64,000 nucleotides of DNA. Source: a virus. Its lineage: Duplodnaviria > Caudoviricetes. The position numbers were made by a program, and so were the translations under genes. This document shows positions 1 through 64,000 of the stretch, one piece after another. Position 1 is the first letter of the stretch; every line of letters starts with the position of its first letter. The DNA is taken from IMG/VR virus record IMGVR_UViG_3300003320_000620, positions 24,095 to 88,094 of that record; one strand, 5' to 3'. The notes beneath the pieces were generated by a model, which did no database searches, was not told the DNA's origin, and saw nothing but the letters and a program-made list of their open reading frames with translations.

Positions 1-54
1 GCTATAGACAGACATTTCAGGACGGACAAGACCTAATTAAATGGTCAGAAGCAT

Positions 55-520
55 TAGACAGAGCGGCCAATACTCTTGCAGAACACCTAGATGAGTTTGT
101 TGAATATACAGTTAGTAGATGAGCAGATTTGAAGCTATCCTCTAAGATCACCCCTAGAAGGAATTGATCCTAGGATAGCACCGATGTGCTGGTTTTGTTG
201 CTGAATATGGTAGATGAGGTGGCAAGAATCGGTGGATTTGGGAGGAAGGAATTTGGCCTCCCTCCGACTTCTTCTGTCTTAGTCTTTCATCCGACGTCAT
301 AAATACACGACGATAGACGAAGAAGACTTTAAAATTACTTAGATGAGCCTGTCTAATCGGCATCGGACACCCCCGACATAATAGCCGACACAACAGATTC
401 GGCGGTGGGCTCGTCGACGTCGCCGCCGAATCTGTTGTGGATGAGCCGATTAAGCTAGATGAGCCTGTCTAATCGCCGTCGGAGGCTAGACGAGCCAGAC
501 AGCAGATGAGGTAGATGAGC
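55..520 (+). repeat. Dispersed array of YAGAYGAG motifs including an exact 20-bp direct repeat
   Basis: TAGATGAG(C/G/T) at 88, 116, 211, 340, 456, 512; TAGACGAGC at 487; CAGATGAGG at 503; TAGATGAGCCTGTCTAATCG exact at 340-359 and 456-475. Confidence 0.8.
389..439. repeat. Perfect 17-bp inverted repeat with 17-nt spacer
   Basis: CACAACAGATTCGGCGG (389-405) / CCGCCGAATCTGTTGTG (423-439), between the two 20-bp direct repeats. Confidence 0.9.
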
Positions 521-590
521 TAGCAAGAGCCCGACGGACTGACGCCAGCAAAGCCATAAAACTAGCCAGGGACAGGCTAGGACTTTACAG

Positions 591-626
591 GGCAAAAATA
601 AACTGGTAGGCCATGCGGCCTACCAG
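591..626 (-). terminator. Intrinsic terminator for leftward transcription
   Basis: 10-bp stem CTGGTAGGCC/GGCCTACCAG (603-626), 4-nt loop, followed on the minus strand by TTTATTTTT. Confidence 0.7.
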
Positions 627-788
627 CCATTTTACGCCTTAACCGTCAATTTTGTACCAGTTGCCGTTTTCAGCGTTCAATTGGTACTTTTGGCCTTTGC
701 CCAGCCCTAAGCCAACGCCGTACTGCTTGTGACTATGCGGCGTCATAATGGCCCGTCAATGCGTTTCACTTGCCAACGTAACGGCCAA

Positions 789-812
789 CCAAGGCCTTAG
801 CTAAGGCCTTGG
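789..812. repeat. Perfect 24-bp palindrome
   Basis: CCAAGGCCTTAGCTAAGGCCTTGG is its own reverse complement; 33 nt past the stop of ORF 845-1522. Confidence 0.9.
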
Positions 813-844
813 CAAGCTCAACCAGTAGCTTTTTGAGCATGTGG

Positions 845-1522
845 CTACTGTTGCGGCTGGTCACTCAACGCCGCGTCAACGGCCTGCTCAACGCTATGGG
901 CAAGCTGTTGCTGAATGTCAGGGGTTGCCTGATCAGGCTCAGCCGCGGGCTTTTCAGCCTTTGGCTTGGGCTTACGCTTTGAAGCCGCCGCTTTGGGCTC
1001 AGGCGCGTCACTGGTAGCCTTTTCAGCTTTGGGCTTAGTAGTACCGCCCTTAGCCTTTTGCTTACCAGCGGGCTTTGTAGCGTCACTGTCAGCACCTGCT
1101 GTTAGCGTAGCCTGAAAGCCCTGCAAGGCACGTTCAAGCGCTTTCACGCCCTTTTGAGTGAACGTCAACCAAAACCGCCCACTGCCTTTAACCCTAGTGA
1201 AGTAGTGTAACCCCTCACCACGGTTATTGGCGCTTAACTCCCGGCTATGGTTATGAGCCGGGCCGCTGTTGAAAGCGGCTGAAAGCTCAGCAACGCTTGC
1301 CCCTTCAGGGCGTAATTGCATGGCCACAAAACCGGCTTCAGGCCCCGGCTTACGTAGCTTACCAAACGCCAAGGCCACAGTCAGCATTTCAGCCGTAGGG
1401 GCAGGCCCGGCATGCTTTACCGGCCACCCTTTCAACCAGGGCTGAAAACCGTCAACCAAAAATTGCACGGGTGTAACGGTTTTCAGTACGTCAACGTTGT
1501 TGATAGTGTTTTGAGTGGTCAT
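845..1522 (-). CDS. Early protein, possible winged-helix N-domain with Lys/Ala/Pro-rich tail
   Basis: 225-aa ORF with GAGGTG RBS; segment LRPEGASVAELSAAF resembles HTH proteins; basic low-complexity C-terminus. Confidence 0.65.
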   Translation of the reverse strand: MTTQNTINNVDVLKTVTPVQFLVDGFQPWLKGWPVKHAGPAPTAEMLTVALAFGKLRKPGPEAGFVAMQLRPEGASVAELSAAFNSGPAHNHSRELSANNRGEGLHYFTRVKGSGRFWLTFTQKGVKALERALQGFQATLTAGADSDATKPAGKQKAKGGTTKPKAEKATSDAPEPKAAASKRKPKPKAEKPAAEPDQATPDIQQQLAHSVEQAVDAALSDQPQQ

Positions 1523-1634
1523 AGTGTCACCTCAAGTTGTAGGGTGCCGCTAGTTGTCAACGTAGCCCTAGCCACGTTCAAAGGCACCCGGTTGTCAAAA
1601 AGCCCGGTTGCTGCGGCAACCGTGGTTTACGTAT

Positions 1635-1690
1635 GAACCATGATGATGCGCATTACAAGCCACCAAAAACAAAAAACACAAAAAACACGT
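1635..1690 (-). promoter_or_regulatory. Possible leftward early promoter with A/T-tract UP-like element
   Basis: Minus-strand TTGTAA (1653-1658) with three A5-6 tracts at 1665-1685 upstream; -10 box is weak. Confidence 0.3.
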
Positions 1691-1757
1691 TCACAGTTGC
1701 GTGATTGCTTTGTGATTTACGGGGGGACCTTTAAGGATTTGCCCCGACCCGCCTAGA

Positions 1758-1773
1758 TGTTTCACGTGAAACA
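1758..1773. promoter_or_regulatory. parS: parS centromere-like site (chromosomal ParB/Spo0J consensus)
   Basis: TGTTTCACGTGAAACA, an exact match to the widespread bacterial parS consensus; palindrome extends to 18 bp (1757-1774). Confidence 0.8.
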
Positions 1774-1797
1774 TGCTTGACAGAGCAGGACGATGTG

Positions 1798-1822
1798 AAG
1801 TACCGCCTTAGGCGGTACTTTT
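1798..1822 (+). terminator. Hairpin with T-tract, terminator-like
   Basis: AAGTACCGCC-TTA-GGCGGTACTT followed by TT. Confidence 0.5.
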
Positions 1823-2166
1823 GCACAGAGCCCAATGGAGCAGGAGGACGGCGGAGGGGAGGCCCCCAGCAAAAGAACAGGACGAGGGTGCATTCAGTTG
1901 GATTTTTCAAAAATGGTACCCCCTCCTCCCTCTAGACTCGCCTCATCCCTATACAATACGCGGCAAATTTTGACTTAACTATCTTTTTGGACAGGGCCAT
2001 AAGCTTCAAGCCGTAATCCTTCACCTCCAGCTCTAACCTGGTCTATTTCTGCTCTTAACGCGATAAGGGTTTCCAGCCATGGCGACCCACCACGGGTCGG
2101 GATCAGCGGCGATGGTCTCGCGGCGTTGCGAATTCTTGATCGCGCCGATGACGGTATATTCGCTGG

Positions 2167-2337
2167 TCATGGTGTAGTCTTTCGGGGCGCAAATAGAGGG
2201 GATGACTGTATTATCCGAAGAGTGACAATTTCAGTTCGTTCAAACAGGCAATCTCCGCACTTCACTTCAGGCTTTGTATCCGAATCGTAGGACGTGACTC
2301 GGTTGCACTTTGGGCATCGCAGATGATAGCGAGTCAT
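2167..2337 (-). CDS. Small zinc-ribbon protein (56 aa, below ORF-track cutoff)
   Basis: MTRYHLRCPKCNRVTSYDSDTKPEVKCGDCLF...: two CxxC pairs. Confidence 0.5.
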   Translation of the reverse strand: MTRYHLRCPKCNRVTSYDSDTKPEVKCGDCLFERTEIVTLRIIQSSPLFAPRKTTP

Positions 2338-2513
2338 GATGCAATCTCATCAATGCAGCGCGAGAGCAGCATCTTCTGGATTAAAGCCTACAAAGACCTT
2401 TGTGCCACTGCTTAATGTGCATTCTATGCCCTTCACTGTCTTTTTAGCCATTGATCTACCTCCTTGTTGATATGGATGTTAGGCCCTGGTTCTGGCCCAG
2501 GTATAGGTCTGGC

Positions 2514-2999
2514 CTAACTATCTTTTTCATCTGCTTCAATCAAGATTTTTGCTGCTGTCTTAACATCATCATCCCTGACAAGGGCTATTTTGGCAGTTTT
2601 GATGGCTGATCTCAGTCGTTTGATTTCAGTTTCTGGGTCTTCAGGTAAGTTTTTGAGCTCTTCGTCAGTGCCTATAAATCGGCAGTGTTTGGCCATACCT
2701 TGATCTATAAGGCTTTGGGGGTAGCCATCCCTTAGCAGGGTTTGTTCTAAAGCTTCATTTGGTTCTGGCTTATAGGGTTTTGGGAACCCATAGCGCCAGC
2801 CTGCTGGCGCTAGTACCTGTACCCAGGCATTCCTTGGTTTGGAACTTAGGAATTCATCTATTGCTTTTTTCCCTTCACTGAAGTCTTTGTATTCAATTTG
2901 TAAAATCCCTGTTAAATCCACTATCCTGCAGGGCAGCATAATACCGCCCCTTATTTCACATAGATGTGCTGGTCTTTCATGTGTATTACACCATTTCAT
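2514..2999 (-). CDS. Hypothetical phage protein
   Basis: 161-aa ORF co-directional with early cluster; contains GWRYGFPK motif seen in phage proteins. Confidence 0.6.
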   Translation of the reverse strand: MKWCNTHERPAHLCEIRGGIMLPCRIVDLTGILQIEYKDFSEGKKAIDEFLSSKPRNAWVQVLAPAGWRYGFPKPYKPEPNEALEQTLLRDGYPQSLIDQGMAKHCRFIGTDEELKNLPEDPETEIKRLRSAIKTAKIALVRDDDVKTAAKILIEADEKDS

Positions 3000-3164
3000 C
3001 GGTCCAGTTCCTCAGCTAGAAATTCTAGCTTCTTTATCCACTCATTGGCCTTCCCACTGAAATACACAGTGAAGATGTGTTCTGGATCTGGGTTATTTAG
3101 CTCCTTCTTTATTTCTTCCATTAGATCAAGCAGCACTTTCCTTATCTGGTGATCTTGCAACATG

Positions 3165-3494
3165 TCATCTACTCACAAAACAGCGGGATTTTTTATGCAG
3201 GCGACGTTGTGCCTGCTTGCTCGGTGGTTGCCTTTCGTTACGAAACTTTTTGTAGGCACGTTTGAGCAAGCGCTTACCTATCTGACCACGTGGGTCTGGC
3301 GGCGCTGATTTGTACCAGAAGTAAGGACTGGTTATCATGCGACCACGGTTGTTGTAGGTACAGGAACCAGCCCGGTGGTTTTCGTCACGTATTGTTTCTA
3401 CAATGAAGAGTTTGGCATAACGCTGCCATAGCGGATCTTCTTCGTCACGTAGGCGGTCGCATACCCGCCGTACCATTTGTGTCTCGGTAAGCAT
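3165..3494 (-). CDS. Hypothetical basic protein
   Basis: 109-aa ORF, GAGAG RBS, tightly packed. Confidence 0.55.
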   Translation of the reverse strand: MLTETQMVRRVCDRLRDEEDPLWQRYAKLFIVETIRDENHRAGSCTYNNRGRMITSPYFWYKSAPPDPRGQIGKRLLKRAYKKFRNERQPPSKQAQRRLHKKSRCFVSR

Positions 3495-3506
3495 TTCTGT
3501 TCTCTC

Positions 3507-3815
3507 CTATTTCAGCGTTACCTCACGCCCATTCAGGTGTTTGCTCAGGTGCTTTTCGTAACGCTTTTGCTCTAGCTCCATTTGATCTGCCATTGCTTCA
3601 GTATATTCTGCTTCTGTTATGAGTCCTTTCTTAATCAAGAGGGCCGCTAACCCGGCAGTATCGGACATGGCTGAGTTGACCCCTACCCTTAGATGCTTTG
3701 GCTCTGTGGCGCTGGGGCAGTAGTTCATGTCCATTGTTACGCCTGATTGCATGGCGTGAGCGGCCCGGTGATAGCGTTCTACTGCTTCTGCTATTCTTTT
3801 TTCATCGTCTGTCAT
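3507..3815 (-). CDS. Hypothetical phage protein
   Basis: 102-aa ORF with GGAG RBS; PKHLRVGVNSAM motif recurrent in phage hypotheticals. Confidence 0.65.
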   Translation of the reverse strand: MTDDEKRIAEAVERYHRAAHAMQSGVTMDMNYCPSATEPKHLRVGVNSAMSDTAGLAALLIKKGLITEAEYTEAMADQMELEQKRYEKHLSKHLNGREVTLK

Positions 3816-3832
3816 TAGCCTTTTCTCCCAAT

Positions 3833-3862
3833 AAAAAAGGTGGGCTATGATAGCCCACCTTT
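3833..3862 (-). terminator. Intrinsic terminator
   Basis: 12-bp stem AAAGGTGGGCTA/TAGCCCACCTTT, minus-strand T6 tract, downstream of ORF 3888. Confidence 0.75.
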
Positions 3863-4280: not shown

Positions 4281-4761
4281 CTAAGCCTGCCCAGCTAACT
4301 GTTGCGCCAGCTGCTTGCATTCCTCCTTTACATACTCAAAGGTCCTGTATTTGGCATCTGCAAAGGCGTATGAGCGTATGCCCTCAAACCTAAAGAGTTT
4401 TGGGGCAACGTCGTCGCAGTGAGCGCAGTCAAACCCTAACCACCACACTTTGTCTGGTTCACCCTCTTCTACCACATGACAAAATACCGTGCTCTTTAGC
4501 AGGGGGGTGTATCTGACAAGGCCCAGCGAACGTAAGGCCGCCATGGCATTCTACGTCAACAGTGTCATACTCTTTACCGTGACATGGGCGGCCCTCCGGT
4601 ACCCCCACATAGCCACAGAGCGCCCCAACAGGGTTGCGCACTATCAGGCAAGGCAAACCAGTATCTTCATCTTGCCATTGCACCTTGTCTGGCTCATGGT
4701 CCCACACACCGCGTGGCCACTCAGATTTGTCAACGACATTTTCATAGACAATTGTCTTCAT
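4281..4761 (-). pseudogene. Phage hypothetical gene broken by a 1-nt frameshift (or sequencing indel)
   Basis: CGYVGVP..HGGLTF half (ORF 4459-4875) and WWLGFDCAH half (ORF 4281-4544) join as KEHGI-CHVVEEG if one base is removed from the A4 run at 4481-4484. Confidence 0.6.
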
Positions 4762-4875
4762 TTTTTCCTCACTCAACGCAGGTATATGCTCAAAGCCAGG
4801 GCGAGATAGGCAACCAGCAATCCAGAGTAGTGCCCTGTTGCCCACAGCCAAGCAGGTTGGCCTGTATCCTTCCAT

Positions 4876-61400: not shown

Positions 61401-64000
61401 TTATTTGTTAGGAAACTTGTATTCTTTGTGAGACCAAAGTTTGCACATGAATTCCATTTCAGCCCAGTTGTAGCCAACTGAGACCTCAATTGAGAGAGGG
61501 ACATTGATCCAGTCGTAGTCAAAGGTCAGCATAGCCTTTGAAATGATACGCAGCGAATCACTCAGGGTTTCATCATTGTCTGGGATAAAGAAGCTTAGAT
61601 CATCGTGAATGTTTAGAACGGGGTGCAAATACCATTTCCCGGTATTCTTAGCTATCACAGACAGTTTGTTCATGGCGTTGCATACCAATTCGGCAGCAGT
61701 ACCCTGAATCGGCATATTCACAGCCTGATTCTTGGTTAGAGGGTAGTGGTGGCGCCTGCCGCACATGGTTTCGACATAGCCAATATCGTAATATTGCTTC
61801 ATAGTCTTCTTTTGCCATGAGGCCATCCCTGAAAACGTATCCCAAAATTCATCCATCAAATCATCAACAATGTGCTGTTCTACGTCATAACCAGTAGCAT
61901 TATGCAAATATCCACGCACTGACCCGTTAGAAGCACCAAAAAAGGCCGGGAACACAAGTTTGTTCTTGATTAAGCTTCGGAAGCCTTTCATTACCCCTTT
62001 GTCTTCAAGATTAGCGGTACCACCAATCAGGGCGGGGCACTTCATTGCCGTTTTCTTTGCCCATTCTGCATGGGTATCATAATCCTCCCACAGAGCCTTA
62101 ACCAGATAACCATCCCTAGAGCAAATGGCCCCTGTGCACGCTTCCAACTGGCCATAATCTATGGCTAAAAGTAGGTGCCCAGGTGGTGGTACGATTTGAG
62201 CCCTTAACCAAGCATCCGCCCTCCGAGGGTAGTTCTGCATGTTCGGCGAATCCGAACTAGTGCGACCTGTTTCGGTGAAGGTAGTGTTCAGGTTGGCATG
62301 CAACCTGCCATCTGGATAAATTAAACTACCTTTGCCCAGTTCCAGATCGTCAACATAGGTTGACTTCATCTTTGAGCGGTTGCGCAGCTTCACAATCAAT
62401 TTCGCTAGCGGATGATCTATTTTATCTAGAATATTCTTATCTACTGAAAGCCTGTCATTGCCACTCTTGTCTTTTACCTTGACCTCTGGCCGTTTCAGGT
62501 AATCCTTGAAAAGGGCTAGAACATCTGGCTGAGATGCGGGATTAAAGCCTTTACGGTCAGCAATGAACTTTTTAACTGTTGGATCACTGACTACTTCAAA
62601 GCGTGATTTGACTACCTCAAATCTAAGCTTCTTTTGTGCTGCTTTGCAGGCTTTTTGATCTACTGGAACACCAAAACTCTGCATCAAGGCCACAGTGGGC
62701 TGACGCGGTACTGAATCTAAATAAGCATCAAGCAGCCCGCTGTCTTCAAGAAGCTTGTGTTGGTGGTGAAACAGCCTGAGCGTGTACTTCGTATCAACGG
62801 CGTTGTAGATCAGGACCTCGTTTATGTCAGATTTTGACATATCCTTTTTGTTTAACTTAAACTCAGATTTGAAAGCAATGCCGAAGTACTGCTTAATCAG
62901 GAAGTCCAACGCCTGATAGCGGGAAGCATGAGCTTCGTCATCAAAGCGGTTGCCCTTCCGTTCGTCAATAAAGTGAGCCTGCATCTGAGTGCATTGCCAC
63001 ACTTCGTGGTTGACTACGTTCTCACCAAATTCCTTAATAAACCAGCACAATTCGAAGGGAGTGTTGTGAGCTACTTTGATGGTGTCGTCGGTAAGTAACT
63101 CCTGCAATGAGGACAGAATGGTTGCTAGGTCAGCAGCCCTCCATCGCGCTTGAGGGTGCCTGACAGCAAATGAGAAATTTGTGTTCTCAAAGCTGATGGC
63201 AACAGAAAGCAGCAGCCCGTCTGCTGCCCATGGGGCCAAACCTTTGGTTTCAACATCTACGGCTTTGATTGGCGCCTTCTTTGCTTCGTTCAAAAGCTTA
63301 AGGAGCTTGCCGAGCTCATTAGGATCATTAAAACACTGAACATTTGATCTAATGTCTGATTCGTCATCAATAACAGGGGGCGGCATTGAGCTAGCAAACT
63401 CAAAGGCACGCTTAACATCCATACGAAAGCAGTGCCCAAACATAGAGTTTAGCGGCTTACGCTTATCCCTAGCTGTTCTGAGTATGAACGAGGGGTGGTA
63501 AGTAGACAAAAACCAGCAGCTGTGGTTGCCGATTTTAACTGCTGATAGCCTTCCACGCATACCAGATAGATCACTGGTGCCCATAATGGCTTGCAAAGGA
63601 ACTGCTCCCAAACCAAGGATCAGCTTTGGTTTGGCCTTTTCAATGTGATCTATTTTCCGAGGCCTGCAGCACTCAATTTCTTGAGGTGTAGGGGTTCTGT
63701 TCTCAGGGGGCCGACAATTCACTACGTTGTCAAACGAACAAACTACACCTTCCGGTATGCATTCACGAATCAACCTACCTGAAGGCCCTGTTAAAGGTCT
63801 TCCGGTACGTTGATCCTCATCAGCCCCAGGGGCCTCAGATAGGATATAAACATCTGCCCCAGCAGCTAAGGTAGGGGCCATCTTAGGTGTACAAATGTCA
63901 GCTTTGTCTAGTGGGCAGGCACGGCAACCAAGCCGCCACAATAGGCTTTTGTTTTGCCCCGCTATAGGGCTAGGGTGGTCACTGGTAAGCTTACCAGTGA
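61401..64000 (-). CDS. polA: Family A DNA polymerase with N-terminal family-4 UDG-like domain (5' end beyond window)
   Basis: CRAC, EAPG.DED..G.P..GPSG, NVV.CRP, YHPS (UDG4); DVETKG exo motif, TGR.SS..PN.QN, DYGQLE, N.PIQG, IHDD; frame stays open to 64000. Confidence 0.93.
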   Translation of the reverse strand, partial: TGKLTSDHPSPIAGQNKSLLWRLGCRACPLDKADICTPKMAPTLAAGADVYILSEAPGADEDQRTGRPLTGPSGRLIRECIPEGVVCSFDNVVNCRPPENRTPTPQEIECCRPRKIDHIEKAKPKLILGLGAVPLQAIMGTSDLSGMRGRLSAVKIGNHSCWFLSTYHPSFILRTARDKRKPLNSMFGHCFRMDVKRAFEFASSMPPPVIDDESDIRSNVQCFNDPNELGKLLKLLNEAKKAPIKAVDVETKGLAPWAADGLLLSVAISFENTNFSFAVRHPQARWRAADLATILSSLQELLTDDTIKVAHNTPFELCWFIKEFGENVVNHEVWQCTQMQAHFIDERKGNRFDDEAHASRYQALDFLIKQYFGIAFKSEFKLNKKDMSKSDINEVLIYNAVDTKYTLRLFHHQHKLLEDSGLLDAYLDSVPRQPTVALMQSFGVPVDQKACKAAQKKLRFEVVKSRFEVVSDPTVKKFIADRKGFNPASQPDVLALFKDYLKRPEVKVKDKSGNDRLSVDKNILDKIDHPLAKLIVKLRNRSKMKSTYVDDLELGKGSLIYPDGRLHANLNTTFTETGRTSSDSPNMQNYPRRADAWLRAQIVPPPGHLLLAIDYGQLEACTGAICSRDGYLVKALWEDYDTHAEWAKKTAMKCPALIGGTANLEDKGVMKGFRSLIKNKLVFPAFFGASNGSVRGYLHNATGYDVEQHIVDDLMDEFWDTFSGMASWQKKTMKQYYDIGYVETMCGRRHHYPLTKNQAVNMPIQGTAAELVCNAMNKLSVIAKNTGKWYLHPVLNIHDDLSFFIPDNDETLSDSLRIISKAMLTFDYDWINVPLSIEVSVGYNWAEMEFMCKLWSHKEYKFPNK

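What the first reader, a model, noticed from the sequence alone, without database searches (positions are those of the whole stretch)
583..1724. 1.14-kb block nearly free of TCC/TCG/TCT and GGA/CGA/AGA
Reading 583-1724 base by base, TC is always followed by A and GA always preceded by T, with one exception (TCC at 1239-1241). Uniform composition would give about 107 such trinucleotides (6/64 x 1142). The rule holds through coding and non-coding DNA and forces codon choice in ORF 845-1522. Both flanks (1-582 and 1725-1900) are instead rich in AGA/CGA/GGA. This is strong DNA-level selection on both strands. Possible causes: a first-entering segment purged of restriction or defence target motifs, a zone kept free of a context-specific base modification, or exclusion of a protein that binds the flanks.
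Basis: partly seen in the sequence, partly recalled or inferred. Interest (0 to 1): 0.8.

Follow-up and report, generated by a model that had tools for sequence, protein, structure and literature searches.

The report
Phage early gene purged of VGA/TCB
One complete early gene unit of an uncultured 88-kb soil phage, and of at least ten diverged relatives, has been cleared by natural selection of six three-letter DNA words on both strands, which implies that something reading only three bases attacks or marks DNA while this gene must stay usable.

Summary
Window 583-1724 holds 1 VGA/TCB word (V = A, C or G; B = C, G or T). About 80 are expected. No other stretch of the 88-kb phage genome comes close.

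The homologous stretch in ten further loci from other metagenomes obeys the same rule. Their proteins are below 50% to 73% identical and their DNA 62-77%. Pooled, 13,471 bp hold 1 site against 958 expected.

Synonymous recoding predicts 41±5 sites per gene. The rule also shapes the protein: residues that cannot end in T never precede Asp or Glu.

The block is exactly one transcription unit. It runs from about 100 nt upstream of the likely start to the intrinsic terminator. It encodes a winged-helix protein with a lysine-rich tail, plus variable small cargo genes. Its borders are packed with TCB on the sense strand only. A second, weaker zone 5 kb away avoids mainly sense-strand VGA.

Best reading (0.45): a 3-nt-specific, strand-specific DNA-damaging or DNA-marking activity acts early in infection, and this cassette must stay transcribable. 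The agent is not identified. No methyltransferase or DpdA was found, and genome ends are unknown.

This scan's earlier, unchecked notes report TCG/CGA-, GAC/GTC- and GAG/CTC-free early blocks in other phages.

The parts
583..1724 (.). Motif-free block: no VGA/TCB on either strand except TCC at 1239-1241. It equals one leftward transcription unit with its upstream promoter DNA.
   Evidence: The homologous blocks of 0.88-1.74 kb in 10 other loci hold no site at all.
845..1522 (-). ORF of 225 aa. Residues ~10-140 form a conserved winged-helix-like domain with an invariant 'GPAHNHS' recognition-helix motif. Residues ~145-225 form a disordered Lys/Ala/Pro-rich tail.
   Evidence: No Pfam or PHROG family. 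18 close and 89 profile homologues. AlphaFold pLDDT 84-92 over the domain. Only weak, generic wHTH fold matches: MarR, F-93, ScpB, Sso10a, TFE-alpha, Z <= 5.3.
1239..1241 (+). The single exception. TCC on the + strand is GGA across the codons CGG|GAG (Arg-Glu) on the sense strand.
   Evidence: five of the six relatives compared have Arg-Ala (CGN GCN) at this position (the motif used for the lookup was not found in L010), so this is a lineage-specific Ala->Glu change.
1523..1724 (-). Promoter and 5' leader. It holds a T-rich UP-like element GTTTTTTGTGTTT (1674-1686), a -35-like box, two further TTGACA boxes (~1545-1550 and ~1584-1589), an attenuator-like hairpin (1606-1623) and the Shine-Dalgarno sequence TGAGGTGA, which obeys the rule.
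   Evidence: The element is conserved in L004, L005, L006, L010, L011 and L013. The promoter assignment is by consensus only (inference).
602..629 (-). Intrinsic terminator of the unit (12-bp stem, then a T-run).
   Evidence: In relatives the block ends within ~40 nt of the terminator's T-run, read from the flank print-out. L006 has one AGA just before its hairpin.
89..520 (+). Part of a co-oriented array of (T)AGATGAG(C) repeats (CTCATCT on the gene strand) directly downstream of the terminator. The array continues about 660 bp to the left of the window.
   Evidence: 11 of the 21 plus-strand copies in the genome lie at genome 23435-24607. An equivalent array is present in all relatives.
1725..1935 (.). 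Upstream border. It is C-rich and TCB-dense on the gene strand (17 TCB, 0 VGA in the first 200 bp). It holds parS (1758-1773), a hairpin with a T-run on the + strand (1800-1822) and the conserved box GGGGGTACCATTTT (1910-1930, gene strand).

Best explanation
The block is a self-contained, host-type early expression cassette. It consists of upstream promoter DNA, a leader, the gene for a winged-helix protein with a lysine-rich tail, and an intrinsic terminator. It sits in the centre of the early control region of a deep clade of uncultured ~90-kb phages.

Shown: purifying selection keeps both strands of exactly this unit free of VGA/TCB. It dictates synonymous codons, the Shine-Dalgarno sequence and even which residues may precede Asp or Glu.

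Inferred: VGA/TCB is the target of a DNA-acting activity with 3-nt specificity that is present at the start of infection. Candidates are a frequent nickase or ssDNA endonuclease, or a base-modifying enzyme whose lesion blocks RNA polymerase. The cassette is the piece of phage DNA that must remain intact and transcribable while that activity is on.

Inferred: a site-free promoter-to-terminator fragment would be the only DNA longer than ~220 bp to survive such an activity. The second zone has TCB nearly absent from the template strand but tolerated on the other strand. That suggests the event is strand-specific and harms transcription mainly on the template strand.

Inferred: the identical rule is fixed in all clade members from many samples. 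So the agent is probably conserved: either encoded by the phage lineage (host-DNA shut-off in the manner of T5 A1, T4 EndoII/EndoIV or chlorovirus nickases) or a widespread host system.

The identity of the agent, and the role of the encoded protein (protector, antidote or specificity factor), are not shown.
For: (1) Depletion: 1 site against ~80 expected in the window. Pooled over 11 loci: 1 against 958 in 13,471 bp.
(2) Ongoing selection: the genes are only 62-77% identical at DNA level. The synonymous-recoding null gives 41+/-5 sites per gene against 0-1 observed. Unavoidable sites at protein level are 0 in 7 of 7 block proteins, against 6.4 per 225 aa in 16 control proteins. K, E, Q, M and W never precede D or E (0 of 80, against 18%).
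(3) Non-coding DNA obeys too, including ~100 nt upstream of the likely start that varies between relatives. That points to DNA, not RNA or translation.
(4) The edges match the promoter and the terminator in all loci.
(5) Strand asymmetry: in zone 2, sense VGA is 6 observed against 103 expected, and sense TCB is 23 against 66. In the flanks, sense TCB is 150 against VGA 38 upstream, and 328 against 82 downstream.
(6) The same rule holds in distant family members.
(7) Precedents. In T5, restriction counts only for sites within the first-exposed FST DNA (PMC10644984). How FST DNA escapes the phage's own A1 nuclease is an open question (bioRxiv 10.64898/2026.04.02.716235). Enzymes with 3-nt specificity exist: T4 EndoIV at TCA and Nt.CviPII at CCD (from my own knowledge, not checked here).
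(8) The neighbourhood is early or anti-defence: a Gad2-family gene in relative L016.
Against: No nuclease, nickase or DNA-modifying enzyme with this specificity was identified in the phage.

The rest of the phage genome carries ~6000 sites. A lethal nuclease would therefore need a further protection or timing mechanism that is not visible here.

Nothing shows when the cassette is expressed.

The strand asymmetry rests on zone 2 and the flanks, and the flanks may be TC-rich for other reasons (repeat array, Rho-type insulation).

A host agent would be expected to vary between hosts, yet a phage-encoded agent was not found either.
Confidence: 0.45

Rival explanations
1. Protein-free window. A DNA-binding protein that recognises a short GA/TC-containing word coats or silences DNA. 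It may be the cassette's own winged-helix/Lys-rich product, or the very basic zone-2 protein. Its own transcription unit is kept free of sites so that it is never silenced. The site-dense borders act as nucleation sites or barriers.
For: The unit always encodes the same wHTH protein with a basic tail. Zone 2 encodes a very basic conserved protein. The borders carry conserved repeat arrays and are 2-fold site-enriched. The phage has an RfaH/NusG-like factor at the head of its 46-kb late operon that could drive RNA polymerase through bound DNA.
Against: wHTH domains normally read 4-6 bp, not a degenerate 3-mer. A bound duplex site would not obviously give the 17-fold against 3-fold strand asymmetry of zone 2. 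All other phage genes carry ~70 sites per kb and would also be coated. There are no binding data.
Confidence: 0.2
2. First-entering (T5 FST-like) DNA. The block lies next to a physical genome end and enters the cell alone. It must survive host or phage nucleases until its product allows the rest of the genome in. The downstream repeat array acts like an injection stop signal.
For: The T5 precedent has a site-free FST, a conserved untranslated repeat region and host-protein sites (PMC10644984; bioRxiv 10.1101/866236). Here there is a conserved repeat array on one side, and host-type parS plus a conserved G/C-run-ACCATTTT box on the other. The nearest terminases (53%) are from Brucella phages, whose records annotate an HNH endonuclease within the matched terminase region, an arrangement reported for cos phages (abstract of PMC3592412). 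Two contigs from two samples end at the block's upstream edge.
Against: No end was mapped. The 88-kb contig and eight other contigs run through both borders. No contig ends at the conserved box. The block is only 1.1-1.7 kb. Genes on the same strand lie directly upstream. Only contig-level read data exist.
Confidence: 0.15
3. Modification-free zone. Virion DNA carries a bulky base modification in the VGA/TCB context. The cassette lacks the context so that host RNA polymerase can read it immediately after entry, or so that a regulator can bind unmodified DNA.
For: A template-strand adduct would explain the asymmetry. A DndB/DGQHR-like ParB-fold protein is encoded among the early genes, and that family accompanies the Dnd and Dpd DNA-modification systems. 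The phage polymerase carries a UDG-family domain.
Against: No DNA methyltransferase or TGT/DpdA was found in a six-frame search, with working positive controls. No base-biosynthesis genes were seen. GGC is 2-fold enriched, unlike the GA+GGC context recalled for 7-deazaguanine phages (that context is from memory). All other early genes carry the motif at normal density and would also be unreadable.
Confidence: 0.1
4. RNA-level selection. An endoribonuclease (toxin or phage RNase) cuts at VGA (and UCB), and the mRNA must escape it.
For: In zone 2 the sense strand, which equals the mRNA, avoids VGA far more than TCB. ACA-less or GCU-less mRNAs are known for MazF/MqsR systems (from my own knowledge).
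Against: The block avoids both words on both strands. It includes ~100 nt upstream of the likely transcription start, and sites stay absent for up to ~40 nt past the terminator. Two unrelated RNA motifs that happen to be reverse complements of each other would be needed.
Confidence: 0.04
5. No selection: foreign DNA with odd composition, hypermutation, or chance.
For: The block is more G+C-rich (53%) than the genome (48%).
Against: Eleven diverged loci all have zero or one site, against 958 expected. The edges are sharp. The synonymous and protein-level nulls are rejected. TGA/TCA are not depleted. There is no excess of TTB or VAA, as C->T hypermutation would leave.
Confidence: 0.01

Closest known systems
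First-step-transfer (FST, pre-early) DNA of T5/BF23-like phages
   Same: A short early segment whose freedom from nuclease target sites decides the outcome of infection (PMC10644984). It is expressed by host RNA polymerase. It is bounded by a conserved untranslated repeat region with host-protein binding sites (bioRxiv 10.1101/866236). It must coexist with massive DNA degradation, by unknown means (bioRxiv 10.64898/2026.04.02.716235).
   Different: In T5 the avoided sites are ordinary 4-8-bp restriction sites, and their absence is partial and strain-dependent. Here six of the 64 trinucleotides are removed completely. The zone is 1.1-1.7 kb and equals one transcription unit. Its position relative to genome ends is unknown. 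No match to Pfam or PHROG families that would point to an A1, A2 or Dmp homologue was seen (not searched directly).
Classical restriction-site avoidance in phage genomes
   Same: Selection removes short DNA words from a phage genome. This clade also shows genome-wide avoidance of GCCGGC, GGGCCC, ACCGGT, CCCGGG and TGANTCA.
   Different: That avoidance is genome-wide and concerns palindromes of 4-6 bp. The VGA/TCB rule is local, non-palindromic, degenerate and only 3 nt long. It is far stronger, reaching into the protein sequence.
Viral host-DNA-degrading enzymes with 3-nt specificity (T4 endonuclease IV at TCA on ssDNA; chlorovirus nickase Nt.CviPII at CCD). Recalled from the literature, not tested here.
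   Same: They show that virus-encoded nucleases can read a (degenerate) trinucleotide on one strand. That is the kind of agent the pattern implies.
   Different: Those viruses protect their whole genome by base substitution or methylation. Here no such protection is visible and only one cassette is site-free. No homologue of these enzymes was found.
Toxin-resistant transcripts (ACA-less or GCU-less mRNAs versus MazF/MqsR)
   Same: A gene is cleared of a 3-nt word so that it remains expressed while a sequence-specific nuclease is active.
   Different: Those cases act on RNA and on one strand. Here both DNA strands and non-transcribed promoter DNA are cleared.

Membership tests
T5-type first-step-transfer region | Lies at the leading physical end of the virion DNA (within a terminal repeat) | not testable with these tools
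   Only contig-level read data exist. The contig ends lie inside genes. No contig ends at the conserved upstream box.
T5-type first-step-transfer region | Bounded by a conserved untranslated repeat region | tested here: met
   An array of >=10 CTCATCT(A/G) repeats plus other conserved boxes lies directly after the terminator in all relatives. Its function is unknown.
T5-type first-step-transfer region | Encodes A1/A2/Dmp-type pre-early proteins | tested here: inconclusive
   The block protein and its neighbours hit no Pfam, PHROG or PADLOC family. No direct comparison with A1 or A2 sequences was made.
Classical restriction-site avoidance | The avoided words are 4-8-bp, mostly palindromic recognition sites | tested here: not met
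   The block-specific avoided set is VGA/TCB. Palindrome O/E is 0.66 in the blocks against 0.79 in the rest of the genome, so that avoidance is genome-wide.
Sequence-specific 7-deazaguanine (Dpd) DNA modification | Phage encodes a DpdA/TGT-family transglycosylase | tested here: not met
   PF01702 found nothing at E<=0.1 in a six-frame search of the genome, while the control genomes were positive. Very diverged DpdA forms could be missed. A DndB/DpdB-like ParB-fold ORF is present.
DNA methyltransferase-based protection | Phage encodes an N6/N4 or C5 DNA methyltransferase | tested here: not met
   PF01555, PF00145 and PF02086 found nothing in the genome.
DarT2-type ssDNA ADP-ribosylation target avoidance | Avoidance of the TNTC motif | tested here: not met
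   166 TNTC sites, all as TNTCA, are tolerated in 13.5 kb of blocks. The motif is taken from PMC11543638.
Winged-helix DNA-binding proteins (MarR/ArsR/ScpB-like fold) | Three-helix bundle plus beta-hairpin wing with significant structural similarity | tested here: inconclusive
   The model is confident over residues 10-140. The matches are all wHTH proteins but weak: Foldseek E >= 0.19 and VIA Z <= 5.3.

The most novel reading that the evidence does not exclude
This phage clade uses, or is confronted with, an undescribed DNA-targeting enzyme that reads only T-C-(not A) on one strand and nicks or adducts DNA every ~14 bp. The promoter-to-terminator cassette is a 'digestion-proof' mini-gene that stays expressed while all other DNA in the cell is being attacked. 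Its winged-helix/Lys-rich product then protects or licenses the rest of the phage genome. Together with the TCG/CGA-, GAC/GTC- and GAG/CTC-free early blocks noted by this scan in unrelated phages, this would define a general and so far unrecognised infection strategy. It would also define a family of 3-bp-specific enzymes whose specificity can be read off phage genomes.
Probability: 0.25. Interest if true: 0.9.

Novelty: new variant of a known kind. Interest (0 to 1): 0.8.

Why it matters
Clearing six trinucleotides completely from one transcription unit, across a deep phage clade, is among the strongest local DNA-level constraints that sequence can show. Its cost includes forbidden amino-acid neighbours. 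It is indirect but strong evidence for an activity with 3-nt specificity acting on DNA at the very start of infection.

That bears on an open question in phage biology: how early phage DNA survives while host DNA is destroyed or defences fire. For T5 this is still unexplained.

That makes the question testable: map breaks or adducts at TCB, recode the cassette, and correlate forbidden words with gene content across phage clades to find the enzyme. A strand-specific enzyme reading TCB would also be of practical interest as a frequent nickase or DNA-marking tool.

Tried and rejected
- DNA similarity of window 1-2400, and tblastn of the block protein, against 50,697 phage records: no match.
- The search for related loci with the protein, then with its alignment, in IMG/VR (two scans) and with the alignment in one genome per prokaryote species: no relatives. 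No host or prophage form was found.
- Pfam, PHROGs and PADLOC on the block protein, the zone-2 protein, the small cargo ORFs and neighbouring early ORFs: nothing informative.
- Rfam on four loci: no family.
- Sequencing runs: three runs of one root-metagenome study hold the stretch, all kept as contigs. There is therefore no depth profile, no molecule ends and no modification signal. No RNA holder is listed.
- Half-parS word GTTTCAC upstream of the zone-2 gene: not enriched genome-wide. Dropped.
- Absence of GANTC from the blocks (0 against ~7.6 naive expectation): explained by genome-wide scarcity of TGANTCA (6 against 48.6), so not block-specific.
- Extra palindrome avoidance in the block: it is genome-wide.
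- cos-site idea for the conserved [G/C-run](G/T)ACCATTTT box: no contig ends there. Left as a note.
- C->T hypermutation footprint: no excess of TTB or VAA, and the block is G+C-richer than its surroundings.
- DarT2 (TNTC) and CAjan/9g-type (GA+GGC) contexts do not fit.
- DarT1 motif: the literature gives no consensus (PMC11543638, PMC11125620).
- Literature search for the genome ends of Brucella phages: nothing usable.
Full report
THE OBSERVATION

Window 583-1724 contains one TCC (1239-1241). It has no TCG, TCT, GGA, CGA or AGA, but 40 TCA and 20 TGA. The bounding sites are GGA at 580 and GGA at 1725.

The window is the last 64 kb of an 88,094-bp virus record estimated 97% complete. Across that genome the density of the six words is 0.070 per base. 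The two longest site-free gaps (659 and 486 bp) are the two halves of this block. The next longest are 221 and 137 bp.

Genome-wide the words are not depleted in any comparable way. By a Markov expectation AGA is 1.01, CGA 0.88, GGA 0.85 and TGA 1.18.

An independent Logan contig from the source sample, a root metagenome, spans window 1-3445 with one mismatch at even depth. The block is therefore not a chimera.

CONSERVATION

The ORF at 845-1522 (minus strand, 225 aa) has 18 homologues at 51-73% identity in public metagenomes. A profile search found 89 more distant ones.

I fetched DNA for the homologous locus from ten further places. Every one carries a sharply bounded block with no VGA/TCB at all:
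- 1304, 1512 and 1342 bp (L004, L005, L006)
- 1219, 1736 and at least 1234 bp (L008, L010, L011)
- 966 and at least 1197 bp (L013, L015)
- 877 and 970 bp (L016, L018)

One very distant member (L017) is relaxed, with four sites in ~850 bp. Pooled, 13,471 bp contain 1 site where 958 are expected.

The genes are only 62-77% identical at the DNA level. Random synonymous recoding with this phage's codon usage gives 41±5 sites per gene, with a minimum of 24 in 500 trials. All seven block proteins can be encoded with zero unavoidable sites, whereas 16 ordinary proteins of the phage have on average 6.4 unavoidable sites per 225 residues.

In four homologues, 79 of 80 Asp/Glu codons follow a T-ending codon (43% in controls). 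Lys, Glu, Gln, Met and Trp, which cannot end in T, never precede Asp or Glu (0 of 80 against 18%).

The one exception in the window is a lineage-specific Ala→Glu change (GCG→GAG after CGG). Violations do arise, and are evidently removed. This is continuing purifying selection, not chance, composition or hypermutation. There is also no excess of TTB or VAA, and the block is G+C-richer than its surroundings.

WHAT THE BLOCK IS

In gene orientation the block starts 30-45 nt before a conserved T-rich element (GTTTTTTGTGTTT). A -35-like box follows, so the block starts about 100 nt upstream of the likely transcription start. It includes a 200-260-nt leader with conserved structure-like boxes. It ends within about 40 nt of a strong intrinsic terminator in every locus. 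Even the Shine-Dalgarno sequence is written as TGAGGTGA.

The block is therefore one promoter-to-terminator unit. The promoter assignment rests on consensus only.

The protein has a confidently modelled N-terminal domain (pLDDT 84-92) and a disordered Lys/Ala/Pro-rich tail. Its fold matches are weak but are uniformly winged-helix DNA binders.

In relatives the unit carries one or two additional small genes of unknown function that obey the same rule. They include a conserved ~90-aa family.

The unit lies in the early control region. That region sits between a rightward group of small regulator-like genes, a leftward group of small genes, and the NusG/RfaH-like head of a 46-kb late operon. The synteny is kept in distant relatives.

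THE BORDERS AND A SECOND ZONE

Both borders are about two-fold enriched in the forbidden words, but on one strand only. Within 300 bp upstream the sense strand has 150 TCB against 38 VGA. Within 600 bp downstream it has 328 against 82. Ordinary genes have 43 VGA and 27 TCB per kb of sense strand.

The downstream border is an array of ten or more co-oriented CTCATCT(A/G) repeats with further conserved boxes. The upstream border holds a C-rich tract, a hairpin and a conserved [G/C-run](G/T)ACCATTTT box. In four loci it also holds a perfect host-type parS.

About 5 kb downstream lies a second unit (L003 about 2700-3860). It is at the head of the long leftward early/replication operon and encodes a conserved, very basic ~130-aa protein. 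It is partly cleared in three genomes. Sense-strand VGA is 6 observed against 103 expected, while sense-strand TCB is 23 against 66.

So TCB on the template strand is the most strongly avoided configuration. That avoidance extends beyond the fully cleared block.

MECHANISM

Symmetry on both strands, and the inclusion of non-transcribed promoter DNA, place the constraint on DNA. It does not act on RNA or translation.

Coincidence with a transcription unit says that what is protected is the ability to transcribe this unit. The strand asymmetry favours an event on one strand, a nick or a bulky adduct on the TCB-containing strand. Such an event blocks RNA polymerase when it lies on the template strand.

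A frequent strand-specific nickase or ssDNA endonuclease, or a base-modifying enzyme, fits best. With sites every ~14 bp elsewhere, the cassette would be the only long intact expression unit.

The same rule holds throughout a deep clade sampled from many metagenomes. That argues for a conserved agent. It could be phage-encoded, by analogy with host-DNA destruction by T5 A1, whose sparing of FST DNA is unexplained (bioRxiv 10.64898/2026.04.02.716235). T4 EndoII/IV and chlorovirus nickases are further analogies, recalled and not tested here. Or it could be a widespread host system.

I could not identify the agent. There is no DNA methyltransferase or DpdA and no recognisable nuclease beyond homing enzymes and SbcCD.

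The only DNA-modification-associated lead is a DndB/DGQHR-like ParB-fold ORF among the early genes. Next to it in the operon is an IetA-like AAA ATPase.

How the other ~6000 sites of the phage genome are tolerated is unexplained. That is the main weakness of the nuclease version. The rivals are protein exclusion, first-entering DNA and a modification-free zone. None is excluded, and each is weighed separately in this report.

COMPARISON WITH WHAT IS KNOWN

The nearest documented case is the T5/BF23 first-step-transfer DNA. There, restriction systems act only if their sites lie in that segment (PMC10644984), and the segment is followed by a conserved repeat region with host-protein sites (bioRxiv 10.1101/866236).

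This case differs in several ways. The word is three bases long and degenerate, and the clearing is total. The unit is a single 1.1-1.7-kb cassette. An end position is not shown.

Classical restriction-site avoidance also exists in this clade (GCCGGC, GGGCCC, ACCGGT, CCCGGG, TGANTCA). It is genome-wide, and distinct from the block rule.

DarT2-type (TNTC) and GA+GGC deazaguanine contexts do not fit.

Earlier, unchecked notes of this scan describe TCG/CGA-, GAC/GTC- and GAG/CTC-free early blocks in three unrelated phages.

VERDICT

The feature is real and extreme, and it is evolutionarily maintained. Its anatomy is now defined, and its cause is narrowed to a DNA-level, probably strand-specific, 3-nt-reading activity. 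The agent is unidentified.

I rate it a new variant of a known kind (motif-free early phage DNA). Interest is high because it makes an unknown enzyme activity directly testable.

Noticed in passing
window 1758-1773; also L005 6128, L006 820, L010 683: A perfect host-type parS (TGTTTCACGTGAAACA) lies 30-85 bp upstream of the block in four of the loci. It is absent in L004, L008 and the distant relatives, so it is not part of the core rule.
   Followed up: partly
window 89-520 and ~660 bp further left (genome 23435-24607); L004 11160-11700, L005 7770-8200, L006 2310-2850, L008 2360-2950: A co-oriented array of >=10 (T)AGATGAG(C) repeats with other conserved boxes (CGTCTTCTTCGTC, TAATGCTCTACCTACATCT, TATCTAACACATAGTCCC). 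It resembles an iteron array: a candidate origin, centromere, pac site or injection-stop region.
   Followed up: partly
L003 2700-3860 (genome ~18.7-19.9 kb, outside the window); L004 15690-16500; L005 9700-10500: A second, partly cleared G+C-rich zone at the head of the leftward early/replication operon. It encodes a conserved, very basic 128-137-aa protein of no known family, followed by ~300 nt of conserved non-coding sequence.
   Followed up: partly
window 1910-1930 (gene strand); nine loci: A conserved box [G- or C-run](G/T)ACCATTTT lies 150-330 bp upstream of the block and abuts it in L015. It could be a cos-like site, a terminator or a protein site. No contig ends there.
   Followed up: partly
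L007 10287-11375 (-), genome coordinates the same: A 362-aa early ORF with a ParB fold, closest to DndB/DGQHR, GmrSD_N and AIPR clusters (feature score 0.96-0.98, TM 0.66-0.69). Such proteins accompany DNA-modification systems.
   Followed up: partly
L007 12895-14628 (-): A 577-aa AAA ATPase with a match to IetA of the Ietacism (IetAS) defence models (E 6e-16). An AAA-family gene of 537 aa lies at the end of L004.
   Followed up: no
L016 10527-11180 (-): A relative carries a Gad2-family (anti-Gabija) gene about 4.4 kb from its block, consistent with an anti-defence neighbourhood.
   Followed up: no
L004 5774-7375 (-): A relative encodes a Ro60/TROVE protein with a vWA domain near the early region. 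A phage-borne Ro60 suggests a Y-RNA-like partner that was not looked for.
   Followed up: no
window 61401-63941 (-): The family A DNA polymerase carries an N-terminal UDG-family domain and a 3'-5' exonuclease domain. The nearest cultured relatives are only 32% identical.
   Followed up: no
whole genome and relatives: Genome-wide avoidance of TGANTCA (6 observed against ~49 naive expectation), and of GCCGGC, GGGCCC, ACCGGT and CCCGGG. This is ordinary restriction-type avoidance. GANTC scarcity would fit a CcrM-bearing (alphaproteobacterial) host.
   Followed up: partly
L007 3-737 and 972-3449 (-): Intein (Hint and LAGLIDADG) insertions in large early genes at the contig's left end. The contig ends fall inside genes, so they are assembly breaks, not physical ends.
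   Followed up: no
window 4281-4544 and 4459-4875 (-): Two overlapping ORFs both match phrog_2164 (unknown function), in its C- and N-terminal halves. This may be one gene with a frameshift, or a programmed shift.
   Followed up: no
L011 and L012 position 1: Contigs from two runs end within 35 nt inside the block's upstream edge. This may reflect assembly breaks in the repeat-rich border.
   Followed up: no
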